A DNA stretch of 64,000 nucleotides. Source: a virus (Duplodnaviria > Caudoviricetes). The number at the start of each line of letters is the position of its first letter. The first letter of the stretch is position 1. Location of the stretch: IMG/VR virus record IMGVR_UViG_3300017691_000006, positions 1 through 64,000 of that record; one strand, written 5' to 3'. The notes below the pieces were generated by a model. That model was not told the origin of the DNA, did no database searches, and saw nothing but the letters and a program-made list of their open reading frames with translations. Below, piece after piece: positions 1,238-50,256 of the stretch. Both the position numbers and the translations under genes were made by a program.

Positions 1238-1817
1238 TAAGGCGAACCGTGCCCATGTCCATCAGAACGCCGTCCTCGTACTGCATACCGATAACGGTGT
1301 CAGTGTCGTACAGGCAGTTCATGATGACGTTGTCACGGAAGTTGAACGATGAGTCTGCGACGGATACCCGCAGCTCGGGGAAGATACGCATGGTACCTTG
1401 CCCGACCAGCGAGTCTGTCAGCATATAGATCTTAGAGTGGTTGTCGAAACGGATGAACGTGCCCTTGGGGATCATGCCGCTGTTCGCGGACACCTCCACC
1501 TGGCTAGCGCCCGCAGACCCCGTGGCCGTTGGCCTCCCGTTAGCCGTCCGTGCTCTGATGACCCCCATGTTCTGGGGGACTATGCACTGGATCGTCTCCG
1601 AGTGGCCGTTGACCACGAGGTGGACCATGAGGTCCTGAGCGCCCGCCGACAGGGGCTCCAGGCGGGTCTCGATCTCCCACCTGTGAGCTGCCCGTCGACG
1701 GGTACGCCGCTTCAAGGAGAGGGTATCCGATACGAAAACGGGCGTGTTTGACTTCATGGTCATCGGCACGACGAACTGAGCGATCACGTTACCGTTGTCG
1801 TAGATACCGTAGGGCAT
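1224..1817 (-). CDS. Putative distal tail protein
   Basis: Immediately follows the tape measure; 197 aa, beta-rich. Confidence 0.55.
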   Translation of the reverse strand: MPYGIYDNGNVIAQFVVPMTMKSNTPVFVSDTLSLKRRTRRRAAHRWEIETRLEPLSAGAQDLMVHLVVNGHSETIQCIVPQNMGVIRARTANGRPTATGSAGASQVEVSANSGMIPKGTFIRFDNHSKIYMLTDSLVGQGTMRIFPELRVSVADSSFNFRDNVIMNCLYDTDTVIGMQYEDGVLMDMGTVRLIERV

Positions 1818-10800: not shown

Positions 10801-11557
10801 TCAGCTGGCCCTCGTTGGCCATCTTGCGGAGACCGCCCACGGATACGCCCAGGGCGTCGGCGAGGCCGTTGCCGAGGTAGCGCATCTGCTCCATGACGGA
10901 GTTGAACTCCTCGCCACGGAGGACGCCGGAGCCGATGCCCTGCGACAGCTGCGTGAGCGCGGCCTCCACGCCCTGCACAGAGGAACCGGACAGCGCCGCG
11001 CTCTGCTGGATGGTGCGGTTGAGCTTGACGATGCGACCCTGCTCCACGTTAGCGCCCTTGAGCGCGGTGGTGAAGGTCACGAAGATGTCGGCGTTGGCTC
11101 CAAGGGCGGTGCGGGTGTCCTGCGCCGTCTTGAACAGCTCGCGCTGGCGCAGGGTCAGCTCGTAGGTGTCCTTGGTGACCAGCTTGAGGCGGTCGCGGAT
11201 GGCCAGGATGTCGTCGCCGGCCTGCGTGAAGGCGCTGACGCCCTTGGTAGCGGCGAACACGGCAGCGATGCTGAGCACCGAGCCCTTGAGCAGGTTGATG
11301 TTGGCCCGCAGCGCGGTGGTGTCGGCTGCGATCGCCTTGAGCGACGACGAGCCGGAGCCGCCGAACGCCTTGAATGAGTTGTTCGCCTGGTTGATGTTCT
11401 TGCTGAGGTCCTTGAACCGGTCTGCGTTGACCTTGTCCAAGGACTGCCCCGCGCGGCCCGACATCGTTACCATGTCGGCCAGGCGCTTGTTAAGGCTGCG
11501 GAGTCCGTTCTCCGCCTTCTCCGAGTTAGTTTCGACGTCGATGATTACGCCCGACAT
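1817..11557 (-). CDS. Tail tape measure protein (3246 aa) with lytic transglycosylase domain
   Basis: N-terminal tape-measure signature (ALTQLSQGIGSGVLRGEEFNSVMEQ), Ala/Gly-rich helical body, C-terminal GGDVKGPGTSRSDSIPAMLSDGEFVVNA motif; follows the tail chaperone. Confidence 0.95.
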   Translation of the reverse strand: MSGVIIDVETNSEKAENGLRSLNKRLADMVTMSGRAGQSLDKVNADRFKDLSKNINQANNSFKAFGGSGSSSLKAIAADTTALRANINLLKGSVLSIAAVFAATKGVSAFTQAGDDILAIRDRLKLVTKDTYELTLRQRELFKTAQDTRTALGANADIFVTFTTALKGANVEQGRIVKLNRTIQQSAALSGSSVQGVEAALTQLSQGIGSGVLRGEEFNSVMEQMRYLGNGLADALGVSVGGLRKMANEGQLTTEVLVGALEKMASTAERDFGRTQASATVGFRQFRQSLNYFLGDINQFTGASAKLGSIFVSMGKGLDSDAVVTRLTTIRRALNNYFDELERLRKVKFEIWRFDPGDGSVEAEMKKESKKQLEALKSFFSGNDVDVPQNLIERLKSRLKMPTKEDTGFFDVGDTRATVKAVVDTFAQLARGVELTAHNIKRSMPVIIAPMVRFRDSLLADSAITAKAADTYVYKALLPLTRGLEEFRDVISFGNLGDNFGPRAFVRLFQSDDIVDFAHNLTVLNNVFDQHFIRLNSLGHFLNEKTRFVKSFTVWPVQDLLIQLGLMDNRLIRIRDTRFDRVIEYMRLLGDSAAYTYKQLLAPDINLFVYKLKISLLIALKTVADIFSSAFNFDNGQAFGKALVRGIVAGVSFIGKALAEVFEKGVDLDRYSRDLGKQFVYVIAGVLATIPGFVAGAFTGISQEIYAQLAAVDYDSVFDGLKSAAGKGVEFVVKMFTDILSYANQHLKAVENRITGFGQHVKDVFFNIWDEVVGHSFWPDMVDDVNAYTKNLFQSSSMIDRFSDGVLGAFRSTLDKVRSYFSKFGGALGEISVVVTNIDWGSTARNIAGSFGAILYSAFTLLRSKNASFKFLAAAYLLSIFDNATGGAINKAAPAVGSAAGVLGAEFAKGLITSFKEAIILAGKALPSFLETMFTDLIPFIQYPMNLISNFIPIFNNGVLGSLALVTAAYLKFTGKKFTDVWATLFGTPAKGKKEATAGIGPALFESLAGPVVGQAQRVKFTSSLATQLFDKPKFAAIAAGIMSLGLMDAFRFRDAFAVAAPFLAMAILGNKGGARFMKETTILGTNLLVKSFGDIAKNMAKLVLPTSAYEKLTKWLAAPFDAMEARSKKVKGPVGRAMAGFTDNIKQVVANIEAGRKLYADGVIGMKDLFFGADVVGPQGPQRPTANTSFGTAFQRVKTAVGDYKIDPASKSIREYAAQMRTLYNKVALDLVARLTVSNTIVADGFKNFTAKAFEALKGSISSFYSFLGPVFNGLGKLLQNRMLLLSVGVNLAAFFATSASAATGAADAFSSMGDSLAGTAVAVVALTAAMKTLSLGTKAFGAYRSARKSFLSDATADELKDMKLRFSERKLEAVNAFKNTPKADRQEAFGTDKISVYRGRISKESNEAFEAKRKALMADAIPAANQAAWQAAKAEAGRFFTGVTAGFAKLRTAFAFDKIKGAVAGSALGKGVEAAGDATGVFDKVKAFSGAFKGDAAAKVMSGVKEMGVLKTLMLPFRLGLKGLGGATQLLFRGLSLLTTEVLGIALGPLALVAGGLTLLATAFVGFVGPFDSFTDNVKWLADKVLGFAGFEPKTGAGKSKGMADDYGKLEVDGQTYDLTRQLMNMDAANMSAAQLDGVKQALDTYKDTLKSLNDEAVKQGGANDDQRLRASQAYDEAKGIIARQKLRKDADPGNDFGDKLALAQQRRGQGDTSLGGNISRLFGGADANIANAGNSVFSLYYDARDKVVDAFRDITKAATWFATAVGVAIAGTVMPALTALDNWISDSAVGRFFGGIRKGIKDGFVATRDRVMDRDNANGRMYNDFETNFTRDAVKYFDKLPKTVQESLTKAQSEYDKAVTKAEYTRKVVESGGFDRSQGDRTREDAVKRYKSELAYLARIEESYKKIGLAAGAMGKNIDLADKLKDKLKGFETRTKGLGAGLAPDSFYGTEKDMKRFDALAKIRGMADTGVDRARNMGERNRAFSWKKSAEEEAKGYKAILDQRVLFGTLMKQQSDASGVGEDLLRGFRLSGSEASKSFDAVTKRYLELKNALDNAPSEATPEYLRRLQKQLGDTQLQMAKLGPVDVSFEGLNKGLTDVGAAGISMEMYANLPTDDVMQLGEALKDVKVAQVEANQALLDYEEGKTGIEAVQDAIQGVIDKFGEAKRAAAKARFDALGSIATLGLSGVAGADVAASITGDKPNARIRANKGKATRFTQLSISKADAEYTVAQYQPKLRTGTLSASEVKTYSDALSRAADIDEQMQKLGEAPKAEKKDRYGFKQLLADVNEAGIAISDLGFARLGKDARSSLSSIAAQIHGIEKELEKATPTQDVSDQLTRKAKLLADMRQKLVSAFDSTGKAIGETLDQAGLSDRSAISAMSLGNLRELIDLSKQVALLKAKVDDASSLEEYLTLSKELAGVERQRAGTLDKLNNTANKVAETINGAFGSSLQQLTVDNLGDSMVDSFNRAALKVQARIRDLAAQGKNAFAWMREVKRQGEYLDFFSSFATNLEDAIARGAKTGLSKIKDVFPNIGMTVRQFNRLRPDEKNARVKEAMSFDALQKAAELPDLTPTLAKVLDKFDGTNATSVLGEFKDQYLLEFQKSFDDATAQPLELNTNATAENTKAVIALTAAVGVGAGVQMPNLPMGNDLFAKMVPVTLDSESGNKRYGRNGKLLRSSAGALGEMQVLPSTARKPGYGVAPAKDGSPDELARVGRDLLKAFLTKYKDPAKAWAAYNAGPGSLEKAMAKGGDNYLKYMPKETQAYVAKNLRKLGKAKVTPTVNEVLPPDVEVQANALPPKERGYVSDGFYRASERAAKAGYGDLIQQDVYRAADGKQKAKLIGMADQVRALQQAIEDAETVGAPTDELSAKLRRAQESMASFSEHVMDLGHTFREMGERVAQSLDGSLRDGLTAALTGKGDFIKTLFSNLTNSLITNAVDMITKPLTGDNGIVTRFLRGKGNEADAAGFNPLSFLGIGKKKDASLREGDMPGFEIANGTLGSMFGFGGGSAFDSSGLNKSVFGKGGDLLGGDVMGGIGDGATIFSDTFNADIGTLTKDLSGVFEKGAGGIGEALKGLGGGGGGGMIGGAMAAGTLFGTMFAKLFLANGGDVKGPGTSRSDSIPAMLSDGEFVVNAESTKKHRKLLGAINSGKRLKFADGGFVTQLSSQSNAVSDMAVGMMAVPTSATIDESKMPTPKDGGKTEINLGITGDINRQTRATIFELMPQIAAGVNAHNKERGGG
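3244..3570 (-). other. SLT / lytic transglycosylase domain inside the tape measure
   Basis: Motifs ESG..., SSAGALGEMQVLPSTA, AWAAYNAGPG, ETQAYV. Confidence 0.9.
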
Positions 11558-14793: not shown

Positions 14794-15981
14794 TTACGCG
14801 TGGAAGATCGGCAGGATGCCCAGCTGGAGAGCCGAGTTGGTCTTGCGCTGCCACACGCCGCGAACGTTCGCGATGTTGGCGTCGACCATGTTCACGGCCT
14901 TGCGGAGCGTGCCGGCGTCCATGACCGAGGCGTAGTCCGCGTCGGACGGGAAAGCCTCTTCCGGGCCAGCCCAGGTGTAGCCAGCCGGGTGAGCCACGTA
15001 GCCCCAGCGATGCCAGATCTCGGCGACGCCGGTACCCTTGTACGACGCCTCACGGTTGTCCACGCCGACCGGGTTCGGGATCGCCAGCTGCTCCATGGCG
15101 ATCGCGCCGGGGAGGATGACGTACGAGACGTACTGGCCGACGAGGTCGACGCCGGCGCCAACGTTGATCTTGGTGATCTCCGCCGGGCTGAGGTCCATGC
15201 TCGTGCGGGTCATGAGCAAGCGGAACTTGCCCTGGAAGATCGTGGTGAACTCGATGTTGCCGTCCACGACCTTGTCCTGGTCGACGAGGTTCGCCGAGCG
15301 CAGCGACGCCATGACCGCGGGGTCGATGACGAGGTACAGGTACTCGGGCTCGTAGTCCTTCCAGGCCATGCCGACTGCCTTCAGGAAGGCCTCCGCGCGC
15401 TGTGCGCCCTGCGAAGTGGTCGTGGGAGCGCCGACCATCTGGGCAGCACCCAGGTCGACGTAGAAGCCGTAGCGGCGGTCGGTCGGGTCGTTGTAGAAGG
15501 TCTGACCGCCCAGGCCGGTCTGGCCCGAGCCGGTGGCGGTACCGTTGAGCAGCTCCGAGATGGCGACGCCCTTGAGGATCGAGCGGACGGCCGAGTCCTC
15601 GTCGAGGGCGCGGTGCTCACCGAACGACTTGCCCATCTGGACGAGGTCGTCGGTCTTCGTGATCAGCTCGGTCAGGTTGCGCTTCTTCGCGCCCCAGGTG
15701 CGGACCGTCTTGATGTACTGCGAGTAGTCGCTGGAGAAGTCGTTGTACGCGCCGTCCGAGGCGTCGGTGATCGACGCGACGTTGATGACGGGGTTCATCG
15801 GCTTGAACCAGCGCATCTGACCGACGAACGTCTCCGTGTTCTTGTCGATCATGGGGTTGCCGCCCACGATCGCCGTGGTCGACAGTCGCTTGGCGTTGGT
15901 GTACGCCTCATCGCTGTACGCGGTGAGGGTCTCCTGCAGGACGAAGTTCGTCGCGCCTGCCGGGATTACGGGTGCGGGCAT
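14794..15981 (-). CDS. Major capsid protein
   Basis: 395 aa, strongly biased codons, between scaffold and adaptor. Confidence 0.85.
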   Translation of the reverse strand: MPAPVIPAGATNFVLQETLTAYSDEAYTNAKRLSTTAIVGGNPMIDKNTETFVGQMRWFKPMNPVINVASITDASDGAYNDFSSDYSQYIKTVRTWGAKKRNLTELITKTDDLVQMGKSFGEHRALDEDSAVRSILKGVAISELLNGTATGSGQTGLGGQTFYNDPTDRRYGFYVDLGAAQMVGAPTTTSQGAQRAEAFLKAVGMAWKDYEPEYLYLVIDPAVMASLRSANLVDQDKVVDGNIEFTTIFQGKFRLLMTRTSMDLSPAEITKINVGAGVDLVGQYVSYVILPGAIAMEQLAIPNPVGVDNREASYKGTGVAEIWHRWGYVAHPAGYTWAGPEEAFPSDADYASVMDAGTLRKAVNMVDANIANVRGVWQRKTNSALQLGILPIFHA

Positions 15982-15996
15982 TCAGTTGTCCTTGTG

Positions 15997-16689
15997 TTAT
16001 CCGCGCGCGGGCTTGCCGGCGAGGATGTTGCGCATGACCTCGGAAGGGTCGACGTCGAAGATTGACTTGGGCTTCTGCTGGGTACCCGGTGCCGGGTTCA
16101 GCGGGGCGTCTCCGCCCGTGCCGGTGGAACGCTTCGGCTTGAGGAGGAACTGGTTGTCCGCGTCCTCGAAGAACGCCTTGGCGTGGTCGGCGATGCTCTT
16201 ACCCTCGCGGGATACCCAGACACCGTTGGCGTCCTTGACCAGGTCAGTGGTGATGTCCTTGACGGCCATCGCGCGTGCCTTGGCGTTCCGGAACTCGTAG
16301 GTCGCGAGCGCGTCGCTCACGTCACGGTCACGGGTCAGGCCCACGTTCGCCTTGGTAAGCTCCTTCATCTGATTCTGGAGGTCCTCCAGCTCTCGTGCGT
16401 GAGCTTCCTTTTCCTGTCCTGCGTCGCGGAGACGCGCGGTCTCTCGGTCTCGCTCCAGCTTCTCCAGCTCCTTCGTGCGGGCCTCGGCCGCGTCCTTCGC
16501 CTCGTAGGCGGAGTTCAGACGCGCCTTGATCGGAGCCAACGCTGCGGCGACTGCCTTCTCGATGTCGGTGCGGTTGTCTTCCGCCGGCTCGATCGGGGTG
16601 CCGTCCTCGTTCTTCGTGGGGTCGAAGTCCGGGTTGTCGATCATCTGGCCCTCGTTGTCGGGGTCCGGAATCTGCTTGGGGTTCGGCAT
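15997..16689 (-). CDS. Capsid scaffolding protein
   Basis: Acidic N-terminus and coiled coil, directly before the capsid gene; start reassigned to MPNPKQ (16689). Confidence 0.75.
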   Translation of the reverse strand: MPNPKQIPDPDNEGQMIDNPDFDPTKNEDGTPIEPAEDNRTDIEKAVAAALAPIKARLNSAYEAKDAAEARTKELEKLERDRETARLRDAGQEKEAHARELEDLQNQMKELTKANVGLTRDRDVSDALATYEFRNAKARAMAVKDITTDLVKDANGVWVSREGKSIADHAKAFFEDADNQFLLKPKRSTGTGGDAPLNPAPGTQQKPKSIFDVDPSEVMRNILAGKPARG

Positions 16690-16801
16690 TGTTGGTATCT
16701 TCCTCTGAGCACAGCTCAATTGCGGCAGGGGCCACAGACCTCTACCAAATGGAATGTCGGTGTGGGCCGCTGGGAGTACAACTCCTTTACAGCCCATACC
16801 T

Positions 16802-16821
16802 GGGTTAATTCAACGGGTTGG
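16802..16821 (-). promoter_or_regulatory. Conserved motif, degenerate copy (candidate phage RNAP promoter for scaffold/capsid)
   Basis: Plus strand GGGTTAATTCAACGGGTTGG, 19/20 identical to the three perfect copies; lies just after the RNAP stop codon. Confidence 0.7.
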
Positions 16822-16823
16822 CG

Positions 16824-19800
16824 TCAACCTACCCCGTACCATCCGTAATTCTGCTCGAAGTCGTAAGGGACCTCCTCCCTCACGTCGTCTTGCGTCAGGA
16901 TGTCGTCCTCCGTCATCACCTTGCCGCCGACCACGGACCTGCCCGCAACGGGTATCAGGCCAGTGTCGATAGCTTCATCTAAGTACCTCTGGTATATCTC
17001 CTCGGGCAGTCCGCGACCCTTCATCTCGTCCAGGGTCATCTTTACCACGTTCTTGTCCAGCGTCTCTGCGTAAATCTCTCGGAGAGCCGAGCGACCGGGC
17101 AGCAGGTCGGCGATGTTGGTGAAGAACGCGTCGTGGATGGTGCTCGTGGCTACGCCCACGCGCTTGCCCCACTGGTGGAACTTCTTCACGATCACGGCGT
17201 CGTTGGAGTGGTTACCGTTCACGGCGAAGGCGGTGCGTGCCTTCGTGGGGTCGGCGATGTCGTTGATGGTACCAGCCTTGTTAAGGGTCTGGTCCCACCA
17301 GCTGGCCTCGGACTTCTGCGGGATCATCAGGATGTTGGTGACCCAGTTACCCTCCTTGTCCTTGTAGACCAGTCTCTCCTCGAACGTCTGGGTGAAGTTC
17401 TGCTCGATCACCTTGCCGTCGAAGTTGACCCACGGGGCTCGAGTCCAGCTGCCCGGGACGGCGTTCTTGTCCTTGTACAGCACGTTGACCTCGGTCGCCT
17501 TCGTCAGGTCCTTGAGGGCCGTGATGCCGGTGTACTTCTCCAAGATGTCCGGGGCGTACCCCAGGTCCAGCTTGAAGAGCCGCTTACCCACGGTCCTGGT
17601 CTCGGGAGCCTGGGTGCCGTGCAGCAGCGTGTACAGCCCGGAGTCGGGCTTCCAGTCGTAGAAGTACTTCTCCAGCAGCTGCTCGGTCAGCGGGGTGCGC
17701 GCTGGCAGCCCCAGCATCTTGGACACGGCTGGAGGCAGGGTGTAACCCTTCTTGTAGTCACCTCGCAGGGCGAAGGAGGCCACGGACTTCCAGTCCAGCT
17801 CCGCGTTCGACGGCTTGGCGTTCCCGAGGAACTCGCCGGCCAGTCGCCCGAAGAAGCGGGTGAAGTCCTTGAGGATGGGGACCTGCTCCGCCAGGTGCTC
17901 GCTCATGATCTTGGCGATGCCCTGGAAGTCGGCGGGGGTCACGATCCGCTCGTACTGCTGGCTCAGCTTGTCCACGAGGTCGCGGGTGGCCGGGTCCAGG
18001 AAGTACAGCTGCTCCATGATCTCGTCGCCGGGGTCCTGCCCCTTGTTGAAGATGTCGCGCACGTTGGCACGCAGACCTCGGAGCTTCTCAGCACCGTCCG
18101 CGTCGTAGCGCTCCACCCTGGCGATGCGGGCGTCTATCTCGTTGAGCACCTTCTGCCGGTCGGAGGCGGTGACCACCAGCGTTCCGGAGTCCTTGCCCAG
18201 CACCTTGCCGAGCTTGCCCTCTACGTTGAGGATGCCCGTCTTCTCGCCCGCGCCGTAGAACGTGACCATGTTCTGTGCCTTAGCGGCCTTCTGCAGGTCC
18301 TTGAGCTTGAGGCCCAGCTTCTCGTTCAGCACCTTGAAGCGAGGGTCGTTGTAGGTGGCTGCCGCGATCTCGTCGTACAGGCGTCGCTTCTGCGTCGTCG
18401 GCACCACGTTGGACAGCGAGGCCAGCTGCTTGTTCCTCGTCGTGAGGGCGATGATCTGTGCCCCCGAGGACGAGGCGTCCTGCTCCATGGCTAGCGCGGT
18501 CATGTAGTCGTCCAGCTTGTACAGGTTCGACTTCTCGAAGTTGCCGCGCAGGTGCTTGTTGAGCTTGGCCATCTCGATGGCGAACCGGAAGAACTTGCCC
18601 AGCTCCTCGCCGTCCACCTCGGCCACCACCGGGCTCTCCAGCACGAAGCGGAGGTCCGACGGCTTGGAGGAGATCATGGCCTCGCCTATCTCCACCAGCT
18701 CCGCCCTCCAGGCCTCGGCGATCCGCTGGCGACCCACGAAGGTGAGGCCGTCGTGGCGTCCCTCGAAGTAGTCGCTGAGGCCACCGAGGAAGGAGCCGAT
18801 CTGGTCGGTGAGGGCGTAGTAGCCGTCCACCCCCAGGGGCTTCTCCACCGAGGTGTTGAGGAACGGGCGGAAGCTCTCGCCCGACTGCGGGCTGATGAGG
18901 CCACGGTCGTAGACGCGGGCGCGGTGGTCGATGAACGGGTGGTTGCTGAACGCGACCTCCCTGCCCCTCAGCCACTGCATGGACTTGAACCGCTCGTAGG
19001 CGTCGCCGCGCGACGTGATGTACTTGCGGTAGTGGTTGAGCTCGTCGTACTTCTTCGCGCTACCGCGGTCGTCGCGGAAGTACAGCAGCTTCTCGATGAA
19101 GTCGTAGAAGTCGGGGTCGATCTTGTACTGGGTCTGAGCGGCCCAGTTGAGCGCGTCCGACAGGCTCTTGTCCACGAACTCGACGGGGAAGTCGGAGAAC
19201 GAGGAGGTCGAGGTGATCGGGATGCGGGTGTCGTAGTAGCCCAGCCCCTTCTTCACGAAGTAGGTCTTGTACCCCTCGCGCACCAGCAGCCGGTTGGACT
19301 CGTCGGTGACGGCCACGCGCAGCCCGAGCTCGATCTTGCGGTTGAGCTTGGAGTACTCTAGGATACGCGGGTCCACGACCTTGATGTAGTACGACAGCGT
19401 GTCGTAGTACGGGCCGAAGTAGGCTCCCGAGAGACGAGAGCGCATCCGTCGCTTCTGGACGGCGAACGCGTCGATCTCGAACAGGTGGCCGGCGTTCTTC
19501 TCCAGCAGCTTGAGCCCCAGGTTGTACCACTCCTTCCGCGTGCCGTTCATGTTGGCGGCGTTGAAGAGGTCGCGACCCAGGGAGACGGCGACGCTGTCCC
19601 GGTCGGGGCTGTCTGCCATGCCCAGCCGCTGGGCGAACCGCTGGTAGAACTCGCTGATCTGCTGCTCGGTCAGTCGGCTCCTGATCTTCTTGGGGATGTT
19701 CAGGTCGAGGATGTCACGGAGCTCGTTGGCGAGCTTGGGTGCCATGCTGTCGTCCCAGAGGTTCTTCCTCACGATGTTCGGGATGAAGTCTCGGGCCAGC

Positions 19801-21494
19801 TCGTCCAGCTGCGTCTCGCCCAGCACGGGGTCCACGTAGGCGTCCTTGGTCAGCTTGCGCAGCACGTCCTTGTCCTTGCGCAGCTGCGTCTCGATCGCGT
19901 CCGAGATGTTCATCACGTCGAACTTGATCTGGCTGTTCAGGACCGCCTTGAGGTTGCCCCAGGGCTCGCCGTTCCTGCGGAAGCGACCGATAGTGACGCG
20001 GAGGTTCTCGACCACCACGGCTCGCTCGTTCATGCCCATCTTTAGGGCCAGCGAGTCGTCCAGCTGGTTGATGAACTCCTTGTCCTGCTTGAGCAGGTCC
20101 GTGCTCTCGTCCACGCGCCTGAGGGCGCCCATGTAGACGTCCTGGTTGGGCTGGTAGACGCGCACGTCGTCGTAGCGCTGCGTCAGCGGGTTGTAGCGAC
20201 GCTGGTCCTCGGTCGGAGGGGTCGTCAGCACCCGGTTGCGGGTGTTGCGCTTGTTGTGCAGCAGCGTGCCACGGTAAGAGGTGATGGACAGGTTGCCGTT
20301 CAGGTCGCCCGCCTGCAGGAGGTAGTAGTCCTGGAGCGTCTTCTGCATCCGGTACAGGTCCTCCGGCATGGAGGCTCCCAGCTGCATCGCGTCGAGGCGG
20401 GCCTTGGCGTTGGCGAACTTGCGGGTGTCGCCGGGGATGACGTAGTCGCTGTCGGTGAGCTGCCTGAGCTCCTTGATGCCGAGCGAGTTGCCCTCCGGGT
20501 TCGTGAACTTGTCTACGGTGAGCTCGCCCGAGTTGAGCATGCCCACCTGCTTGTAGTCGCCTAGGTGCCTGAGCTGAACGTCCAGCGGCTGTCGGAGCAG
20601 CCAGTCGTTGTAGCTCTCCCTGAGAGGGGTCTGCCCGTCGTAGAACGCCTTCTGGGCGTCCGTCAGGCCGTTGAGGTTGCGCCGACGCACCTCGCCGAGG
20701 CCCTCCAGCTTGCCGACGTCCTCCCAGCTCTTGAACACCGGGACAGTAGTGCTCCGGCAGTTCCAGTGAGCCGGAGGTAGGTGAGAGACATCACCGACAG
20801 GGTATATCTGACCGTCTCGGTGGGCGCAGATAGGGGTGGTACGGGAGTCGAGCACAGCCACGTACTGGTAGCCATCGATAGCCTTCGCGTTGGCCTCGTA
20901 CACGGCGTGGTCTGCCTGCGCGTGCACCGAGGTGACGGCGGTCACGACCAAGGCCCTGGACTGCAGGCGCGTGATCTTGTTGACGTTGTTGCGGCGCAGG
21001 TCCAGCGCCATCTGCTCTACCGTGTCGCCGCGAGCGATGCCTGCCCGGATGAGCAGGTCGATACGCTTGCGCTCGTTGGCGGAAACGTTCGACCACCCCG
21101 AAGCCAGGGTGGTCTCTCCGTAGAGCGGTCGCTCCAGCACGATCTCCTCCGCCACGCGGCGTACGGGTCGCTGGGTGCGCCATATCTTGCCCATCGTGTT
21201 CTCGACGGACTGGTAGGCGAAGGAGAGCTGGTCGGACACGAGGTCCAGCAGCGAGCGGCGCGACAGGGAGAAAGTCTCCTCGTGCGTGCGCATCAGCTCC
21301 TGGTCCACGGCCTCCCGCAAGCGCAGGAGACCCTTGGTGGAGGTCTCCGCGCCCCGGACCAGCTCGTCCAGCCGCTCCTCGTGGCCGTCAAGCACCAGGC
21401 TCACCTTGCCGTTCACACGCCGCTCGTACAGCCGTACCATGGCCGCGCGGTCGACGATCTTGTCGTAAAGTTGAGTGTTGGCGTTGTCGGCCAT
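16824..21494 (-). CDS. SPP1 gp7/Mu gpF head morphogenesis domain fused to a T7-type single-subunit RNA polymerase (1556 aa)
   Basis: MuF signature YQYVAVLDSRTTPIC...PPAHWNCRS (aa ~205-250). RNAP motifs FIDHRARVY (cf. T7 DWRGRVY), A EQDASSSG, B KAAKAQNMVTFYG, GNHSNDA (cf. FVHSQDG), C TIHDAF. Confidence 0.92.
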   Translation of the reverse strand: MADNANTQLYDKIVDRAAMVRLYERRVNGKVSLVLDGHEERLDELVRGAETSTKGLLRLREAVDQELMRTHEETFSLSRRSLLDLVSDQLSFAYQSVENTMGKIWRTQRPVRRVAEEIVLERPLYGETTLASGWSNVSANERKRIDLLIRAGIARGDTVEQMALDLRRNNVNKITRLQSRALVVTAVTSVHAQADHAVYEANAKAIDGYQYVAVLDSRTTPICAHRDGQIYPVGDVSHLPPAHWNCRSTTVPVFKSWEDVGKLEGLGEVRRRNLNGLTDAQKAFYDGQTPLRESYNDWLLRQPLDVQLRHLGDYKQVGMLNSGELTVDKFTNPEGNSLGIKELRQLTDSDYVIPGDTRKFANAKARLDAMQLGASMPEDLYRMQKTLQDYYLLQAGDLNGNLSITSYRGTLLHNKRNTRNRVLTTPPTEDQRRYNPLTQRYDDVRVYQPNQDVYMGALRRVDESTDLLKQDKEFINQLDDSLALKMGMNERAVVVENLRVTIGRFRRNGEPWGNLKAVLNSQIKFDVMNISDAIETQLRKDKDVLRKLTKDAYVDPVLGETQLDELARDFIPNIVRKNLWDDSMAPKLANELRDILDLNIPKKIRSRLTEQQISEFYQRFAQRLGMADSPDRDSVAVSLGRDLFNAANMNGTRKEWYNLGLKLLEKNAGHLFEIDAFAVQKRRMRSRLSGAYFGPYYDTLSYYIKVVDPRILEYSKLNRKIELGLRVAVTDESNRLLVREGYKTYFVKKGLGYYDTRIPITSTSSFSDFPVEFVDKSLSDALNWAAQTQYKIDPDFYDFIEKLLYFRDDRGSAKKYDELNHYRKYITSRGDAYERFKSMQWLRGREVAFSNHPFIDHRARVYDRGLISPQSGESFRPFLNTSVEKPLGVDGYYALTDQIGSFLGGLSDYFEGRHDGLTFVGRQRIAEAWRAELVEIGEAMISSKPSDLRFVLESPVVAEVDGEELGKFFRFAIEMAKLNKHLRGNFEKSNLYKLDDYMTALAMEQDASSSGAQIIALTTRNKQLASLSNVVPTTQKRRLYDEIAAATYNDPRFKVLNEKLGLKLKDLQKAAKAQNMVTFYGAGEKTGILNVEGKLGKVLGKDSGTLVVTASDRQKVLNEIDARIARVERYDADGAEKLRGLRANVRDIFNKGQDPGDEIMEQLYFLDPATRDLVDKLSQQYERIVTPADFQGIAKIMSEHLAEQVPILKDFTRFFGRLAGEFLGNAKPSNAELDWKSVASFALRGDYKKGYTLPPAVSKMLGLPARTPLTEQLLEKYFYDWKPDSGLYTLLHGTQAPETRTVGKRLFKLDLGYAPDILEKYTGITALKDLTKATEVNVLYKDKNAVPGSWTRAPWVNFDGKVIEQNFTQTFEERLVYKDKEGNWVTNILMIPQKSEASWWDQTLNKAGTINDIADPTKARTAFAVNGNHSNDAVIVKKFHQWGKRVGVATSTIHDAFFTNIADLLPGRSALREIYAETLDKNVVKMTLDEMKGRGLPEEIYQRYLDEAIDTGLIPVAGRSVVGGKVMTEDDILTQDDVREEVPYDFEQNYGWYGVG

Positions 21495-21809: not shown

Positions 21810-22246
21810 GCCTGCTTGTCCTCCTTAGCTGGCGAATGGAAACCGATCACCCCCTTCCCGTTGTCCGCAGACTTCTTGACTACCGAATAACCGAGCTCGC
21901 GCATGGCGTGCTCAACGATGTGGTCCAGCAAGTAGGCCTCAGCCTCCATACTCGGGTTCTGCTCGCCGATGGTGCGCCAGATGAGCTGCACCGCGTGCAT
22001 GCTCTCGTGAGCGATCACCGCCGCCGGGCAGACGTCCTCGTCCTCGTGCATGTCCTCCGGGAAGGCCAGGAGCACGTAGGTGCCCTCCGGCGTCCCGTAG
22101 AAGACGGTGGTGGCGTAGCTGTCCTCGAGAGGGTTAGCCACGGGTAGGTCGTTCTTCCGCTGGAAGCGCTTGATGGCGGCGGGCGAGTCGGTCACGCCGA
22201 CCAGCACCGGATACATCAGCCCCTTCAGCCAGGCTATCTTGTTCAT
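21806..22246 (-). CDS. HExxH-motif protein (zincin-like)
   Basis: VIAHESMHAV followed by a downstream EAEAY glutamate. Confidence 0.55.
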   Translation of the reverse strand: MNKIAWLKGLMYPVLVGVTDSPAAIKRFQRKNDLPVANPLEDSYATTVFYGTPEGTYVLLAFPEDMHEDEDVCPAAVIAHESMHAVQLIWRTIGEQNPSMEAEAYLLDHIVEHAMRELGYSVVKKSADNGKGVIGFHSPAKEDKQA

Positions 22247-23934
22247 TTCGGTGGTGGCTTCTTGTCCTTAGACTTGTCCCCGCCCTGGAGCTTGGACTTC
22301 ATCTGGGTTGCGAAGTTGTCCTGCTGCTGGTCGTTCTGCTCGCGCAGCCCCACGACCGTCTCGTCCGCGTTGATCTCCTTCTGACCCTCCTCGTCGTTGT
22401 AGTCGGGGGCCAGCATGTCGTTCTGCTTCAGGATGAGCAGCCACGCCGTGCGGGGGATCAAACCGTTCTGGTACCACTCGGTCGCCAGCCTCAGCCAGTC
22501 CGCGCCCTGCGGCACGGGGTTGAAGTCTGAAGACAGCTCGAAGTCGATCTCCGAGGGCTTGAGCTCCAAGTCGTAGTGCCAGTTCACCATGAAGCAGATG
22601 ACCGCCCGCATGGTGTTGGAGACCTTGGTGTTCAGGGCACCCAGCTGTGCCGTCTGCGTCGCGTTCCTCAGCTCCAGCGCCACGCCAGACTGGTCGCCCG
22701 TCTCCGGGGCCAGCATGCGCACGCCTAGCTTCGCGATCTCCTCGTAACCGGCGGCGATCGCCAGCTCCATGTCCTTGAGCGCCTCGGTGGGCGTCTTGAG
22801 GACGTCTGCCGTGTCGCCCTGCTCCAGGTGGAGCCAGGTGCCGAGACCGCCCTCCACGACCTCGTCGAACTTATCGTCGGACATGTTCGAGGAGATGACG
22901 GGCGTGTAGGTCGCCGCGCCGTACATGAGGTGGTTGCGGCGGGAGATCTTGTTGTAGAGCGCGATCTCCTTGTTCACGATCGCCATGAGCATGGGCTCGT
23001 CGCGGTCGATGGAGCCGTTCAGGGGCCAGGCGGGGATGATGTCGATCTCCTCGTCCCTGATCTTGACCGGGACGGTGTCGACCAGCTGGAAGACCGGCTC
23101 TCCGCCGAACTTGACCTGCTTCTGCCCGCCGACGATCTCCACCGAGTCGGTGCTGTCGTCGACCTTGAAGATGCGCACGCGGTACTTGCCCCGCTGGTCC
23201 AGCTCGTGGACCCACACGGTGGGCACGTACTTGGGGTGGAACTCGTGCTTGTCGTTGTCGTAGACCTCGGTGTGGCCCTTGACGATGACGCGGTCCAGCA
23301 CGGTCCTGCCCTTGGCGTCGGTGCGGGTGCGCGTGTTGATGACGCTCTCGCCCGCCACCAGGACGGGGTACGGCCTGGGCTCCTCGCCCTCCTCGTACTC
23401 CTCGTCCTCGCCGACCTTGGGGTAGTCCACGAACAGCCAGGGAGCGGAGGTCTGCACCTCCTCCCACAGGGCGTCGTCCAGGAAGGCTGACAGCGCGCTG
23501 TCGTCCTTGCCGAACTCGTGGATGATCCAGCGGGCGGCGTCCTCCTGCTGCTCCTGCGGCATCGAGTCCGGGAACTTGATCGTGGGCTGCTTGCGCAGGA
23601 GACCGCCGACCAAGGTCTTGGCGAACTGGGAGGTGATGCCGGGCAGCTCAGCCTCGGCCTTGTAGAAGGCGTACTGGTCCTGCCGCATGGAGGGCGAGAA
23701 GGGGATCAGCAGGTTGGTGAAGCCCACCGTGTCCAGGTGAGAGTCGTAGTCCTTGACAAACTGCTCGCCCCTGCACACGGCCCTGCTCTTGCGCCACACG
23801 CCCACCAGGGACGCGTAGGCGGCGGAGGGGTCGGCCACCGTCTTCACCGTCTCGTGGGCGTTCGACGTCACCGCCGTCGCCTGGCGAGGTGCGAAGCCAG
23901 CGCCCTTTAGGCTCTCGTAGGTGGCCTCGTCCAC
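22243..23934 (-). CDS. Portal protein (DUF4055-like)
   Basis: 563 aa; LIPFSPSMRQDQYAFYKAEAELPG near the N-terminus; position in the head module. Confidence 0.85.
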   Translation of the reverse strand: MDEATYESLKGAGFAPRQATAVTSNAHETVKTVADPSAAYASLVGVWRKSRAVCRGEQFVKDYDSHLDTVGFTNLLIPFSPSMRQDQYAFYKAEAELPGITSQFAKTLVGGLLRKQPTIKFPDSMPQEQQEDAARWIIHEFGKDDSALSAFLDDALWEEVQTSAPWLFVDYPKVGEDEEYEEGEEPRPYPVLVAGESVINTRTRTDAKGRTVLDRVIVKGHTEVYDNDKHEFHPKYVPTVWVHELDQRGKYRVRIFKVDDSTDSVEIVGGQKQVKFGGEPVFQLVDTVPVKIRDEEIDIIPAWPLNGSIDRDEPMLMAIVNKEIALYNKISRRNHLMYGAATYTPVISSNMSDDKFDEVVEGGLGTWLHLEQGDTADVLKTPTEALKDMELAIAAGYEEIAKLGVRMLAPETGDQSGVALELRNATQTAQLGALNTKVSNTMRAVICFMVNWHYDLELKPSEIDFELSSDFNPVPQGADWLRLATEWYQNGLIPRTAWLLILKQNDMLAPDYNDEEGQKEINADETVVGLREQNDQQQDNFATQMKSKLQGGDKSKDKKPPPK

Positions 23935-29446: not shown

Positions 29447-29469
29447 CAGGGTTAATTTAACGGGTTGGG
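29447..29469 (-). promoter_or_regulatory. 23-bp conserved motif, perfect copy (candidate phage RNAP promoter)
   Basis: Plus strand CAGGGTTAATTTAACGGGTTGGG, identical at 50187 and 50234. Confidence 0.75.
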
Positions 29470-43688: not shown

Positions 43689-43782
43689 TCACAGCCGTTT
43701 GCGTGCGGCATTTTACTCTGGTATCGTTTGGGGTTGTTGAACTTACTTCATGATAACCTCCTAGGTGTTTCATATAAGATGC

Positions 43783-50186: not shown

Positions 50187-50209
50187 CAGGGTTAATTTAA
50201 CGGGTTGGG
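50187..50209 (-). promoter_or_regulatory. 23-bp conserved motif, perfect copy
   Basis: Plus strand CAGGGTTAATTTAACGGGTTGGG. Confidence 0.75.
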
Positions 50210-50233
50210 GTGCCCGTCGCTCAGCCCTGTGAA

Positions 50234-50256
50234 CAGGGTTAATTTAACGGGTTGGG
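50234..50256 (-). promoter_or_regulatory. 23-bp conserved motif, perfect copy (47 bp from the previous one)
   Basis: Plus strand CAGGGTTAATTTAACGGGTTGGG. Confidence 0.75.

What the first reader, a model, noticed from the sequence alone, without database searches (positions are those of the whole stretch)
16824..21494. Capsid minor-protein (MuF/gp7) domain fused to a complete T7-type RNA polymerase: candidate virion-packaged, injected RNAP
Seen: aa ~205-250 carry the MuF signature; about 600 aa of unassigned sequence follow; then an ordered T7-RNAP core (DHRARVY ~aa 857, motif A Asp ~1006, motif B Lys/Tyr ~1072-1080, motif C HD ~1455) with all catalytic residues present. The gene occupies the gp7 slot between portal and scaffold. 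Known: SPP1 gp7 binds the portal, is packaged in few copies and accompanies DNA ejection; MuF domains are known as carriers of C-terminal toxin cargo; T7 RNAP is not virion-borne; N4 packages its RNAP by a different route. Inference: MuF acts as a packaging tag delivering an RNAP, making early transcription independent of the host enzyme. No other RNAP is in the window. I cannot tell without a search whether this fusion is already described.
Basis: partly seen in the sequence, partly recalled or inferred. Interest (0 to 1): 0.9.

Follow-up and report, generated by a model that had tools for sequence, protein, structure and literature searches.

The report
Head-protein-fused phage RNA polymerase
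A long-tailed phage joins its only portal-associated minor head protein (MuF) to a complete, apparently active T7-type RNA polymerase, so it probably carries its own transcription enzyme inside the capsid to start infection; hundreds of uncultured phages and the cultured marine Naomviridae share this design, and I found no paper that describes it.

Summary
Confirmed. ORF 16824-21494 (-) encodes one 1556-aa protein with four parts. These are a MuF/SPP1-gp7 minor-head domain (aa 1-348), a disordered hinge (349-358), a helical domain with no informative match (359-560), and a complete T7-type single-subunit RNA polymerase (561-1556). The polymerase matches T7 RNAP at VIA Z 30.7 and hhalign 99%. 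Its catalytic residues are invariant in relatives down to ~20% identity.

It is not an assembly artefact. At least 595 IMG/VR contigs and 159 clusters at 50% identity share the family. The gene lay between portal and scaffold in all 21 loci checked. Cultured DSS3_VP1 has it, annotated only as 'head morphogenesis'.

New context: the 76.75-kb genome encodes a second, canonical T7-like RNAP just outside the window. It also has two conserved promoter-like box classes. One relative without RNAP2 lacks exact class-1 boxes but keeps class-2 boxes and the fusion.

Best reading (~0.6): MuF packages the enzyme, it leaves with the DNA, and it reads class-2 boxes to express early genes including RNAP2. 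RNAP2 then reads class-1 boxes. This is an N4-like relay with a different delivery device. Packaging and activity are untested. This scan has already reported the same fusion in at least five other genomes.

The parts
16824..21494 (-). MuF-RNAP fusion gene, 1556 aa (P0001), including the TGA stop at 16824-16826
   Evidence: ORF list and translation. An AAGGA Shine-Dalgarno-like box lies 11 nt upstream of the ATG.
20451..21494 (-). MuF / SPP1-gp7-type minor head (head morphogenesis) domain, aa 1-348
   Evidence: Pfam PF04233, 57 bits, aa 145-250. phrog_241, E 9e-64, aa 1-347. BFVD Foldseek gives 93 hits at E<=1e-3 to minor capsid / head morphogenesis proteins. The invariant signature lies at aa 215-252 (L215, D216, T219, C223, P240, P241, H243, C246, R247, S248, P252). 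It is the only MuF match in the genome.
20421..20450 (-). Predicted flexible hinge, aa 349-358, at the MuF/polymerase junction
   Evidence: This is the only segment with pLDDT below 50 in the aa 1-620 model (mean pLDDT 86).
19815..20420 (-). Helical domain of unknown role, aa 359-560, conserved in the family
   Evidence: It is modelled confidently (pLDDT mostly 64-95). It lies outside the range aligned to T7, mitochondrial or N4 RNAPs. No informative PDB match was found.
16827..19814 (-). Complete T7-type single-subunit RNA polymerase, aa 561-1556 (N-terminal domain, thumb, palm, fingers, specificity-loop hairpin, C-terminal foot)
   Evidence: hhalign to T7 RNAP: 99.0% probability, E 2.9e-18, 443 columns. 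Foldseek to T7 and mitochondrial RNAPs: E ~2e-17. VIA-align: Z 30.7, rmsd 3.5 A over 524 residues, model 207-1197 against T7 35-883.
18906..18926 (-). DHRARVY motif (aa 857-863), equivalent to T7 DWRGRVY (D421/R423/R425)
   Evidence: phmmer and hhalign alignments. R860 (R501 in alignment numbering) is nearly invariant.
18456..18485 (-). Motif A, EQDASSSGAQ (aa 1004-1013), with catalytic D1006 (T7 D537)
   Evidence: D1006 is invariant in 45 sequences and aligns to T7 D537.
18252..18281 (-). Motif B, KAQNMVTFYG (aa 1072-1081), with K1072, Y1080, G1081 (T7 K631, Y639, G640)
   Evidence: All three residues are invariant and aligned to T7. In EBPR siphovirus 1 a group I intron with an HNH gene splits the codons between aa 1077 and 1078.
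17130..17135 (-). Motif C, H1454-D1455 (T7 H811-D812)
   Evidence: D1455 is invariant and H1454 is at least 90% conserved.
16800..16822 (-). Class-1 promoter-like box (GCCAACCCGTTGAATTAACCCAG) starting 2 nt after the stop codon, ahead of scaffold and capsid genes
   Evidence: Mismatch search and direct sequence. The same core follows the stop codon in 12 of 18 relatives' loci, including AT-rich ones.
22243..23934 (-). Portal protein gene, upstream neighbour
   Evidence: phrog_145, E 2e-51. Portal lies upstream of the fusion gene in 21 of 21 related loci.
14794..16797 (-). Scaffold (15997..16797 as the longest ORF; the true start is probably ~110 nt further downstream) and major head protein (14794..15981), downstream neighbours
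   Evidence: phrog_206 and phrog_247. Synteny holds in 21 of 21 loci. Relatives place the start after a conserved hairpin plus AGGA.
29447..29469 (-). Class-1 box heading the late block that contains portal and the fusion gene
   Evidence: Exact 23-mer, intergenic.
50187..50256 (-). Two tandem class-1 boxes (50187-50209 and 50234-50256)
   Evidence: Exact 23-mers, intergenic.

Best explanation
The gene encodes a virion-delivered RNA polymerase. The gene sits in the head operon behind a class-1 box, which suggests late expression. The N-terminal MuF domain would dock the protein on the portal or procapsid, as MuF proteins such as SPP1 gp7 do, so a few copies would be enclosed in each head. A disordered hinge (aa 349-358) and a helical domain (aa 359-560) tether a complete T7-type polymerase. 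At infection the protein would leave through the tail with the DNA and recognise class-2 boxes (CGCGCAAA-N5-GGTATCTTATATGA...). It would then transcribe the early genes, including a second, canonical T7-like RNAP at 65-67 kb. That second enzyme would read class-1 boxes (CCCGTTAAATTAACCC) ahead of the replication, packaging, head, tail and lysis blocks. Shown here: the fusion, the fold, the intact active site, conservation of the fusion and its synteny, the second RNAP, the two box classes and where they lie, and the absence of both RNAP2 and exact class-1 boxes in one relative. Inferred: late expression, packaging through MuF, ejection, enzymatic activity, and which polymerase reads which box.
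For: (1) Architecture. MuF and RNA_pol both score above the Pfam cutoffs in one frame without stops. AF2 models have pLDDT 83 and 86. T7 RNAP matches at Z 30.7, rmsd 3.5 A over 524 aa, covering T7 35-883. hhalign gives 99%.
(2) Active site. D1006, K1072, Y1080, G1081, D1432 and D1455 are invariant across 45 sequences down to ~20% identity. Tyr at the T7 Y639 position fits rNTP use (established knowledge of T7 RNAP).
(3) The fusion is ancestral and selected. There are 159 representatives at 50% identity, 419 or more clusters at 90% and at least 595 IMG/VR contigs. All six of the most distant members tested keep MuF above the cutoff. Apparent RNAP-only forms include at least one contig-end truncation.
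(4) It is the only MuF in the genome. It holds the portal-MuF-scaffold-capsid slot in 21 of 21 loci.
(5) A second RNAP (746 aa, PF00940 219.7 bits) lies in the early region. It is present in 8 of 9 near-complete relatives and in DSS3_VP1. The two enzymes share only ~27% identity over 78 aa.
(6) Two intergenic box classes lie on the transcribed strand only. Class 1 heads the middle and late blocks, including the block that holds this gene and the scaffold/capsid genes. The three full class-2 copies lie only upstream of RNAP2. Both classes are conserved in relatives of 39-48% GC against 63% here, with analogous boxes in DSS3_VP1.
(7) Natural test. G008 lacks RNAP2 at its syntenic slot and has no exact class-1 box, but keeps the fusion and class-2 boxes.
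(8) Class 2 drives the RNAP2 gene, so RNAP2 cannot be the first enzyme to read it.
(9) Precedents. MuF carries C-terminal enzymatic cargo thought to be delivered to the host (PMC5512222). N4 injects a virion RNAP whose products include a second RNAP (PMC4496689 abstract). P23-45 fuses its virion RNAP to the tape measure protein (10.1101/2022.12.01.518664 abstract).
Against: There is no direct evidence that the protein is in virions, is ejected or is active. The only cultured relatives (DSS3_VP1, DSS3_PM1) have no structural proteome or transcription data in the paper I could read. Assigning class 2 to the fusion enzyme works by elimination, and host RNAP is not excluded. The class-2 core contains -10-like hexamers (TATGAT here, TATAAT in DSS3_VP1), although I saw no TTGACA-like -35 by eye and the 13-nt core is invariant across very different genomes. 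The co-loss test rests on one lineage and on a linear contig estimated 98% complete. A 172-kDa protein would have to pass through a very long tail, presumably unfolded. In G008 only two class-2 boxes exist, so most of its genes must be read some other way.
Confidence: 0.6

Rival explanations
1. The protein is packaged and ejected, but it is not the early-gene transcriptase. Host RNAP reads the class-2 boxes and RNAP2 does the rest, as in T7. The MuF-tethered polymerase serves another entry function: pulling the genome into the cell by transcribing it, making replication primers or R-loops, or protecting the leading DNA end.
For: The class-2 core holds -10-like hexamers. T7 RNAP is known to help internalise T7 DNA and to prime replication (established knowledge, not tested here). 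Primases are common cargo of proteins transferred with DNA (PMC5512222). G008 has only two class-2 boxes, so host RNAP must read much of that genome anyway.
Against: I saw no -35 element or extended -10 by eye. The 13-nt core GGTATCTTATATG is invariant in phages of 39-63% GC. That fits a conserved phage enzyme better than varied host sigma factors. A full promoter-recognition apparatus (N-terminal domain and specificity-loop hairpin) is retained.
Confidence: 0.15
2. The polymerase works inside the producing cell as a late transcriptase, and MuF is an assembly or regulatory add-on. For example, capture by proheads might remove the enzyme at the end of the cycle. Any packaged copies would be incidental.
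For: The gene lies in the late head operon behind a class-1 box. Nothing shows ejection.
Against: Only two box classes were found. Class 1 drives the block holding the fusion gene itself, so the fusion enzyme cannot be what first reads class 1. Class 2 lies only before early genes. RNAP2 and class-1 boxes are absent together in G008 while the fusion stays. MuF stays attached in every full-length member tested, over a divergence of ~20% identity. That is hard to explain if tethering to the head did not matter.
Confidence: 0.12
3. The polymerase fold has been exapted as a structural or DNA-binding head component and no longer polymerises RNA.
For: The sequence is highly divergent from other ssRNAPs. 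phmmer against PDB gives only E ~0.05 to T7 RNAP. Only 159 representatives are found among 1.84 billion. There are ~120-aa insertions with low-confidence segments.
Against: All catalytic residues are invariant across the family. A homing group I intron sits inside motif B in one relative, which is typical of functionally constrained sites.
Confidence: 0.05
4. The fusion is an artefact: a sequencing or assembly frameshift that joins two genes.
For: None was found.
Against: The same single frame occurs in hundreds of independent assemblies and in isolate genomes.
Confidence: 0.01

Closest known systems
Coliphage N4 virion RNA polymerase gp50 and the N4 polymerase relay (Schitoviridae)
   Same: A divergent T7-family single-subunit RNAP encoded among late/structural genes and carried in the particle. 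It transcribes early genes, which include a second T7-like RNAP for the next class (PMC4496689 abstract). Here too there is a divergent RNAP in the head operon plus a canonical RNAP in the early region.
   Different: N4 gp50 is ~3500 aa, with its own N-terminal ejection region and C-terminal encapsidation region and no MuF (PMC5512222). It belongs to podoviruses and uses hairpin promoters. Here the carrier is a MuF domain in a siphovirus-type module. The polymerase is structurally nearer T7 (Z 30.7, 19% identity) than N4 mini-vRNAP (Z 16-20, 10-11% identity). The class-2 boxes do not form stable DNA hairpins.
T7 RNA polymerase (Autographiviridae gene 1) and mitochondrial RNAPs
   Same: The whole fold (T7 residues 30-883) and all catalytic motifs match. 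The candidate promoters are long and conserved, like T7-type promoters.
   Different: T7 RNAP is an early, non-virion enzyme made by host transcription. This one is fused behind ~560 extra residues and encoded in the head operon. The sequence is so divergent that phmmer does not reach ordinary T7-like RNAPs.
MuF (SPP1 gp7 / Mu gpF) minor head proteins carrying C-terminal cargo (MuF polymorphic toxins, MuF-ART, MuF-PBECR, MuF-RelA/SpoT)
   Same: An N-terminal MuF fold next to the portal gene with an enzymatic C-terminal extension (PMC5512222; PMC7302621). A MuF-ADP-ribosyltransferase of Xanthomonas phage Xp12 is among the structural matches.
   Different: The known cargo consists of toxins, RNases, ARTs and alarmone synthetases. 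Among the papers I could search, the survey that catalogued such fusions states that virion RNAP modules occur only in N4-like phages. The cargo here is a ~1000-aa polymerase.
Thermus phage P23-45 tape-measure-fused virion RNAP
   Same: A virion RNAP fused to a structural protein. It transcribes pre-early genes, including a gene for a second, non-virion phage RNAP (10.1101/2022.12.01.518664 abstract).
   Different: That enzyme is a two-barrel RNAP fused to the tape measure protein. Here a T7-type (Pol A-like) RNAP is fused to a head protein. This phage's 3246-aa tape measure protein shows no polymerase match.

Membership tests
T7-type single-subunit RNA polymerases (Pfam PF00940) | Profile match above the curated threshold | tested here: met
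   PF00940 scores 31.1 bits against a cutoff of 22. hhalign to T7 RNAP gives 99.0% probability, E 2.9e-18.
T7-type single-subunit RNA polymerases (Pfam PF00940) | Right-hand fold with N-terminal domain, thumb, palm and fingers, colinear with T7 RNAP | tested here: met
   VIA Z 30.7, rmsd 3.5 A over 524 aa, model 207-1197 against T7 35-883. Foldseek E 2e-17.
T7-type single-subunit RNA polymerases (Pfam PF00940) | Catalytic Asp of motifs A and C; motif B Lys/Tyr/Gly; DxRxR motif | tested here: met
   D1006, D1455, K1072, Y1080 and G1081 are invariant. DHRARVY lies at 857-863.
T7-type single-subunit RNA polymerases (Pfam PF00940) | Template-dependent, promoter-specific RNA synthesis | not testable with these tools
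   This needs purified protein and templates carrying class-1 and class-2 boxes.
MuF / SPP1 gp7 minor head proteins (Pfam PF04233) | Profile match above the curated threshold and a MuF-like fold | tested here: met
   PF04233 scores 57.1 bits against a cutoff of 29.6. phrog_241 E 9e-64. BFVD matches to head morphogenesis / minor capsid proteins reach E 2e-17, apart from the DSS3_VP1 orthologue at E 3.5e-34.
MuF / SPP1 gp7 minor head proteins (Pfam PF04233) | Gene located next to the portal gene in the head module | tested here: met
   Portal, then two small ORFs, then the fusion, then scaffold and capsid. The order is conserved in 21 of 21 loci.
MuF / SPP1 gp7 minor head proteins (Pfam PF04233) | Present in a few copies in the head, bound to the portal | not testable with these tools
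No virion proteome is reported for DSS3_VP1.
N4-like virion RNA polymerases (Schitoviridae gp50) | Protein of ~3500 aa with N-terminal ejection and C-terminal encapsidation regions flanking the polymerase | tested here: not met
   The protein has 1556 aa, MuF lies at the N-terminus, and the polymerase runs to the last residue.
N4-like virion RNA polymerases (Schitoviridae gp50) | Polymerase domain closest to N4 mini-vRNAP | tested here: not met
   N4 mini-vRNAP gives Z 16-20 at 10-11% identity. T7 gives Z 30.7 at 19%.
N4-like virion RNA polymerases (Schitoviridae gp50) | Hairpin-form promoters | tested here: inconclusive
   Class-2 boxes fold no better than shuffles as single-stranded DNA (z -0.6 to -1.6). 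It is not shown that these boxes are this enzyme's promoters.
MuF-borne cargo / polymorphic toxin carriers | N-terminal MuF with a variable C-terminal effector that is swapped between relatives | tested here: not met
   The cargo is not variable. Every full-length family member tested carries the same polymerase.
Two-barrel virion RNAPs fused to structural proteins (P23-45 type, crAss-like) | Double-psi beta-barrel catalytic core | tested here: not met
   The fold is Pol A / T7-type. The tape measure protein has no polymerase match.

The most novel reading that the evidence does not exclude
MuF tethering is a third, independent way for tailed phages to carry a transcription enzyme. A portal-docked T7-type RNAP is co-ejected with the DNA and starts a host-independent two-polymerase relay. 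A conserved early promoter (core GGTATCTTATATG) is read by the packaged enzyme. A conserved middle/late promoter (CCCGTTAAATTAACCC) is read by the early-encoded one. The design defines a large, globally distributed clade of ~70-80-kb siphophages that includes the cultured Naomviridae.
Probability: 0.55. Interest if true: 0.85.

Novelty: new variant of a known kind. Interest (0 to 1): 0.75.

Why it matters
Virion-borne RNA polymerases are known from a few lineages: N4-like, phiKZ/AR9-like, crAss-like and P23-45. Each uses its own packaging device. A MuF-tethered T7-type enzyme would add a simple, modular route. It would extend the known cargo of MuF proteins from toxins to a core information-processing enzyme. 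It would also explain how a large, mostly uncultured siphophage clade (at least 595 IMG/VR contigs) starts infection without, or ahead of, host RNAP.

The idea can be tested directly, because DSS3_VP1 grows on Ruegeria pomeroyi DSS-3. This work supplies candidate promoters for both enzymes. The pair of orthogonal, compact single-subunit RNAPs with distinct ~20-30-nt candidate promoters could also be useful as expression tools. Public annotation currently calls these genes only 'head morphogenesis' or 'SPP1 gp7 family', so the polymerase goes unnoticed.

Tried and rejected
1. dU-DNA link. The cultured relatives have dU-DNA, and other dU phages carry virion RNAPs. This genome has no YfbR-type HD phosphatase (PF12917) or dCMP-deaminase-family gene (PF00383), so the fusion is not tied to dU-DNA.
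2. N4-type hairpin promoters. Class-2 boxes are near-palindromic but do not fold better than shuffled sequences.
3. Stand-alone polymerase forms. P0087 (980 aa, RNA_pol only) abuts its contig end and is therefore truncated. The other short forms were not checked.
4. Longer family members (1626-1890 aa). They show no extra Pfam domain such as an intein or HNH at E<=1e-3. Their insertions remain unexplained.
5. Fold of aa 1-620 against PDB. Foldseek found nothing at E<=1e-3. The wide VIA search gave only generic helical bundles on aa 8-202 (Z up to 11.7).
6. Portal-MuF complex prediction.
7. Expression evidence from public runs.
8. The exact 23-mer class-1 pattern in viral contigs gave 0 hits. 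The core was then found in relatives by direct inspection.
9. Prohead protease that might cleave the fusion. No Peptidase_S78 or ClpP match exists in the genome. Other protease families were not searched.
10. Recent duplication of RNAP2 as the origin. The two enzymes share only ~27% identity over 78 aa.
11. Literature. Eight full-text searches and six papers read gave no description of a MuF-RNAP fusion. The library lacks most subscription journals.
Full report
OBSERVATION. The window holds an uninterrupted minus-strand ORF at 16824..21494 encoding 1556 aa. Pfam places Phage_Mu_F at aa 145-250 (57.1 bits, cutoff 29.6). It places the T7-family RNA_pol model at 31.1 bits (cutoff 22), best stretch aa 993-1095. 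PHROGs gives a head-morphogenesis family over aa 1-347 (E 9e-64) and an RNA polymerase family over aa 854-1086 (E 1e-19). Upstream lies the portal gene (22243..23934) followed by two small ORFs. Downstream lie scaffold, major head protein, head-tail adaptor and major tail protein. A 3246-aa tape measure protein follows further on.

ARCHITECTURE. Two AlphaFold2 models were built on family alignments: aa 360-1556 (pLDDT 83.4, pTM 0.80) and aa 1-620 (pLDDT 86.0). They give four parts.
- Part (i), aa 1-348, is a minor-head-protein fold. It matches 93 predicted viral structures at E<=1e-3. Nearly all the named ones are head-morphogenesis or minor-capsid proteins, and one is a MuF-ADP-ribosyltransferase fusion of Xanthomonas phage Xp12.
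- Part (ii), aa 349-358, is the only disordered segment.
- Part (iii), aa 359-560, is a confidently modelled helical domain. It falls outside every alignment to known RNAPs and has no informative PDB match.
- Part (iv), aa ~561-1556, is a whole T7-type polymerase. VIA-align gives Z 30.7 (rmsd 3.5 A, 524 residues, 19% identity), with model 207-1197 against T7 35-883. Mitochondrial RNAPs give Z 21-29 and N4 mini-vRNAP gives Z 16-20 at 10-11% identity. Foldseek's top listed matches are all T7 or mitochondrial RNAPs at E ~1e-17 to 1e-15.
A profile-to-sequence comparison with T7 RNAP gives 99.0% probability, E 2.9e-18, over 443 columns. So most of the '600 unassigned residues' are the polymerase's own N-terminal domain.

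ACTIVE SITE. A 45-sequence alignment reaches ~20% identity to the query. Its invariant columns are E974, D1006, N1029, K1072, Y1080, G1081, D1432 and D1455, and H1454 is at least 90% conserved (P0001 numbering). In the hhalign alignment D1006, K1072/Y1080/G1081, and H1454/D1455 pair with T7 D537, K631/Y639/G640 and H811/D812. DHRARVY pairs with T7 DWRGRVY, and HSND pairs with T7 HSQD. The roles of these T7 residues (metal-binding aspartates, NTP-binding lysine, ribose-discriminating tyrosine) are established knowledge and were not tested here. The long beta-hairpin that aligns with the T7 specificity loop is present, and the alignment runs to the last residue. The enzyme looks catalytically competent and promoter-specific.

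NOT AN ARTEFACT, AND OLD. A search with the polymerase part found at least 419 clusters at 90% identity. Nearly all are 1520-1580 aa with both Pfam domains, and many lie on 65-90-kb contigs. JGI names them only 'SPP1 gp7 family putative phage head morphogenesis protein'. An exhaustive phmmer scan of 1.84 billion representatives returned just 159 hits, and ordinary T7-like RNAPs were not reached. Every long hit carries the match at the same C-terminal position. All six of the most divergent members tested keep MuF above Pfam's cutoff. IMG/VR holds at least 595 contigs with a relative. In all 21 loci with enough flank the order portal - fusion - scaffold - capsid - adaptor is kept. One apparent 'polymerase-only' protein is cut by a contig end.

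Among deposited phage genomes only EBPR siphovirus 1 (54.5% identity) and the Ruegeria phages DSS3_VP1 and DSS3_PM1 (Naomviridae, 30.8%) have it. There it is annotated 'head protein', 'minor head protein-like' or 'head morphogenesis'. In EBPR siphovirus 1 the gene is split between the codons for aa 1077 and 1078, inside motif B, by ~850 bp that carry an HNH endonuclease gene. A full-length group I intron match starts at the exon boundary (RF00028, 40.5 bits, E 1.4e-8, below Rfam's gathering score of 50). Homing elements typically sit in the most constrained parts of important genes. This agrees with a working active site.

GENOMIC CONTEXT. The window is bases 1-64000 of a 76,750-bp virus record estimated 97% complete. 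Nearly all genes are on the minus strand. The record is cut inside the tail module, so its ends are arbitrary. The fusion is the only MuF in the genome. Just outside the window, at 65029..67269 (-), lies a second RNAP of 746 aa that matches PF00940 strongly (219.7 bits). It shares only ~27% identity over 78 aa with the fusion. DSS3_VP1 has the same pair, and so do 8 of 9 near-complete relatives.

Two repeated motifs occur only in intergenic DNA and only on the transcribed strand.
- Class 1 is GCCCAACCCGTTAAATTAACCCTG. It lies at 74736, 64356, 50256, 50209 and 29469. A 3-mismatch copy lies at 16822, which is 2 nt after the fusion gene's stop codon and ahead of scaffold and capsid.
- Class 2 is CGCGCAAA-N5-GGTATCTTATATGATATC-N-ACCTAGG. 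It lies at 73692, 69086 and 68897, all upstream of RNAP2, with a weak variant at 43780.
The class-1 core follows the fusion gene's stop codon in 12 of 18 relatives' loci. Three AT-rich relatives that have RNAP2 (39-42% GC) keep the layout. They have 4-7 class-1 boxes ahead of later blocks. Their intergenic class-2 boxes lie upstream of RNAP2, within 1-7 kb, across the record junction in one case. DSS3_VP1 has 13 copies of a T7-like box (ATAGGnnnCGTTAAAG followed by a G-rich start). It also has a second box whose core (GCATCTATAATGA) resembles class 2, lying 6-7 kb upstream of its RNAP2.

A NATURAL TEST. Relative G008 (67.9 kb, 98% complete by CheckV, 48% GC) has the fusion. It has no RNAP2 by Pfam search or by tblastn with this phage's RNAP2. 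It has no exact class-1 box, only one 3-mismatch variant, and it keeps two class-2 boxes. The absence is not a contig-end effect. In G008 a class-2 box directly precedes a SleB-like hydrolase gene. The homologue of that gene in G007 lies immediately downstream of RNAP2. So RNAP2 and class-1 boxes are absent together, while the fusion and class-2 boxes stay together. This is one lineage only, and the contig is not closed.

MECHANISM. The best-supported reading is a relay. The fusion gene sits in the head operon behind the class-1 box at 29469, which suggests late expression (inferred). MuF then brings the protein into the procapsid at the portal, as known for SPP1 gp7 and inferred for MuF-borne cargo (PMC5512222). 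At infection the protein leaves with the DNA. It starts at class-2 boxes and makes the early transcripts, including RNAP2 mRNA. RNAP2 then reads class-1 boxes.

The logic for the first step has three legs. Class 2 drives the RNAP2 gene, so another enzyme must read it first. Its 13-nt core is invariant in phages whose base composition, and presumably hosts, differ widely. I also saw no -35 or extended -10 element by eye, so the host sigma-70 holoenzyme is a poorer candidate than the one conserved phage enzyme that is left. Packaging, ejection, activity and promoter assignment are all inferred. I put this reading at about 0.6.

RIVALS. (a) The protein is packaged but has another entry function (DNA internalisation, priming) while host RNAP reads class 2; about 0.15. 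(b) It is an intracellular late transcriptase with MuF as an assembly or regulatory add-on; about 0.12. This fits poorly with class 1 driving the block that holds the fusion gene and with the G008 pattern. (c) It is an exapted, inactive fold; about 0.05, contradicted by the invariant catalytic residues. (d) It is an artefact; refuted.

COMPARISON WITH KNOWN SYSTEMS. In function it resembles the N4 scheme: a virion RNAP for early genes, followed by a T7-like RNAPII (PMC4496689). It also resembles phage P23-45, whose virion RNAP is fused to the tape measure protein and transcribes the gene of a second phage RNAP (10.1101/2022.12.01.518664). It is not a member of the N4 vRNAP family. It has the wrong size and domain plan, it is structurally nearer T7, and its candidate promoters are not stable hairpins. 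It is a member of the T7-type RNAP family and of the MuF family by every computable criterion. It differs from MuF polymorphic-toxin carriers because the cargo is fixed rather than swapped.

The survey of injected 'polyvalent' proteins lists MuF fusions to RNases, 2H phosphoesterases and RelA/SpoT. It states that virion RNAP modules occur only in N4-like phages. The DSS3_VP1 paper mentions no RNA polymerase and no MuF. Eight full-text searches found no description of the fusion. The library lacks most subscription journals, so an existing report cannot be excluded.

EARLIER SCAN NOTES. After my own analysis I looked at the scan's notebook. The same fusion has been reported from at least five other genomes with the same reading. 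On this genome, other notes describe the second RNAP and both motif classes. I had reached these points independently and tested them here. One note proposes a hairpin in the class-2 element, and my folding does not support a stable one.

VERDICT. This is a real, conserved and apparently undescribed variant of a known kind of system, the virion-borne phage RNA polymerase. It uses a new carrier (MuF) and sits in a new, very large clade. The structural and comparative parts are solid. The functional core awaits virion proteomics and transcription assays in DSS3_VP1.

Noticed in passing
genome 65029-67269 (-), about 1 kb beyond the window end; L007:3029-5269 (-): A second, canonical T7-like RNAP (746 aa, PF00940 219.7 bits) sits in the presumptive early region. 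It is present in 8 of 9 near-complete relatives and in DSS3_VP1. In relative G001 it is split into two frames.
   Followed up: yes
window 16800-16822, 29447-29469, 50187-50209, 50234-50256 (-); also genome 64356 and 74736: Class-1 box with core CCCGTTAAATTAACCC. It is intergenic, on one strand only, and heads the middle and late blocks. It is conserved in relatives of 39-42% GC. It is probably the promoter of the second RNAP.
   Followed up: yes
genome 73692, 69086, 68897 (-), outside the window; weak variant at window ~43766-43781 (-): Class-2 box CGCGCAAA-N5-GGTATCTTATATGA... In this genome its three full copies lie only upstream of the second RNAP gene. The core is conserved in all relatives examined, and DSS3_VP1 has a similar core (GCATCTATAATGA). 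It does not form a stable DNA hairpin.
   Followed up: yes
G008 (IMG/VR record behind L085), 67,865 bp: A family member lacks the second RNAP at its syntenic slot and has no exact class-1 box. It keeps the MuF-RNAP and two class-2 boxes. How it transcribes most of its genes is unclear.
   Followed up: partly
L001:11176-12037 (EBPR siphovirus 1, JF412302): A group I intron (RF00028, E 1.4e-8, below the gathering score) carrying HNH endonuclease gene gp48 splits the MuF-RNAP homologue inside catalytic motif B. The record annotates the exons as separate genes gp47 and gp49.
   Followed up: yes
window ~16690-16760 (-), and the same position in L013-L088: Between the class-1 box and the scaffold start codon lie small hairpins with a TGT loop (GAGCTGTGCTC here, GAGTTGTACTC in relatives). 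They show compensatory changes and are directly followed by AGGA. This may be a translation or RNA-stability element. The scaffold ATG at 16797 given by the ORF list is probably not the real start.
   Followed up: no
window 1817-11557 (-): The tape measure protein is 3246 aa, with a lytic (endolysin / lytic tail fiber-like) segment at aa ~2660-2780. This predicts a very long tail. No polymerase domain is present.
   Followed up: partly
L111-L114 (DSS3_VP1, NC_055826): Thirteen plus-strand copies of ATAGGnnnCGTTAAAG followed by G-rich sequence look like T7-type promoters. The DSS3_VP1 paper that I searched does not mention RNA polymerase.
   Followed up: partly
P0050, P0062, P0100, P0104, P0107, P0111, P0116, P0154, P0167, P0172: Some family members are 70-500 aa longer (1626-2073 aa). 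Those scanned (P0100, P0104, P0116, P0154, P0167, P0172) show no recognisable extra Pfam domain. The nature of the insertions is unknown.
   Followed up: partly
genome 75671-76735 (-), L007:13671-14735: A tail-tip protein (PF09327) lies at the far end of the record. The record is therefore cut inside the tail module and its ends are not the physical genome ends.
   Followed up: no
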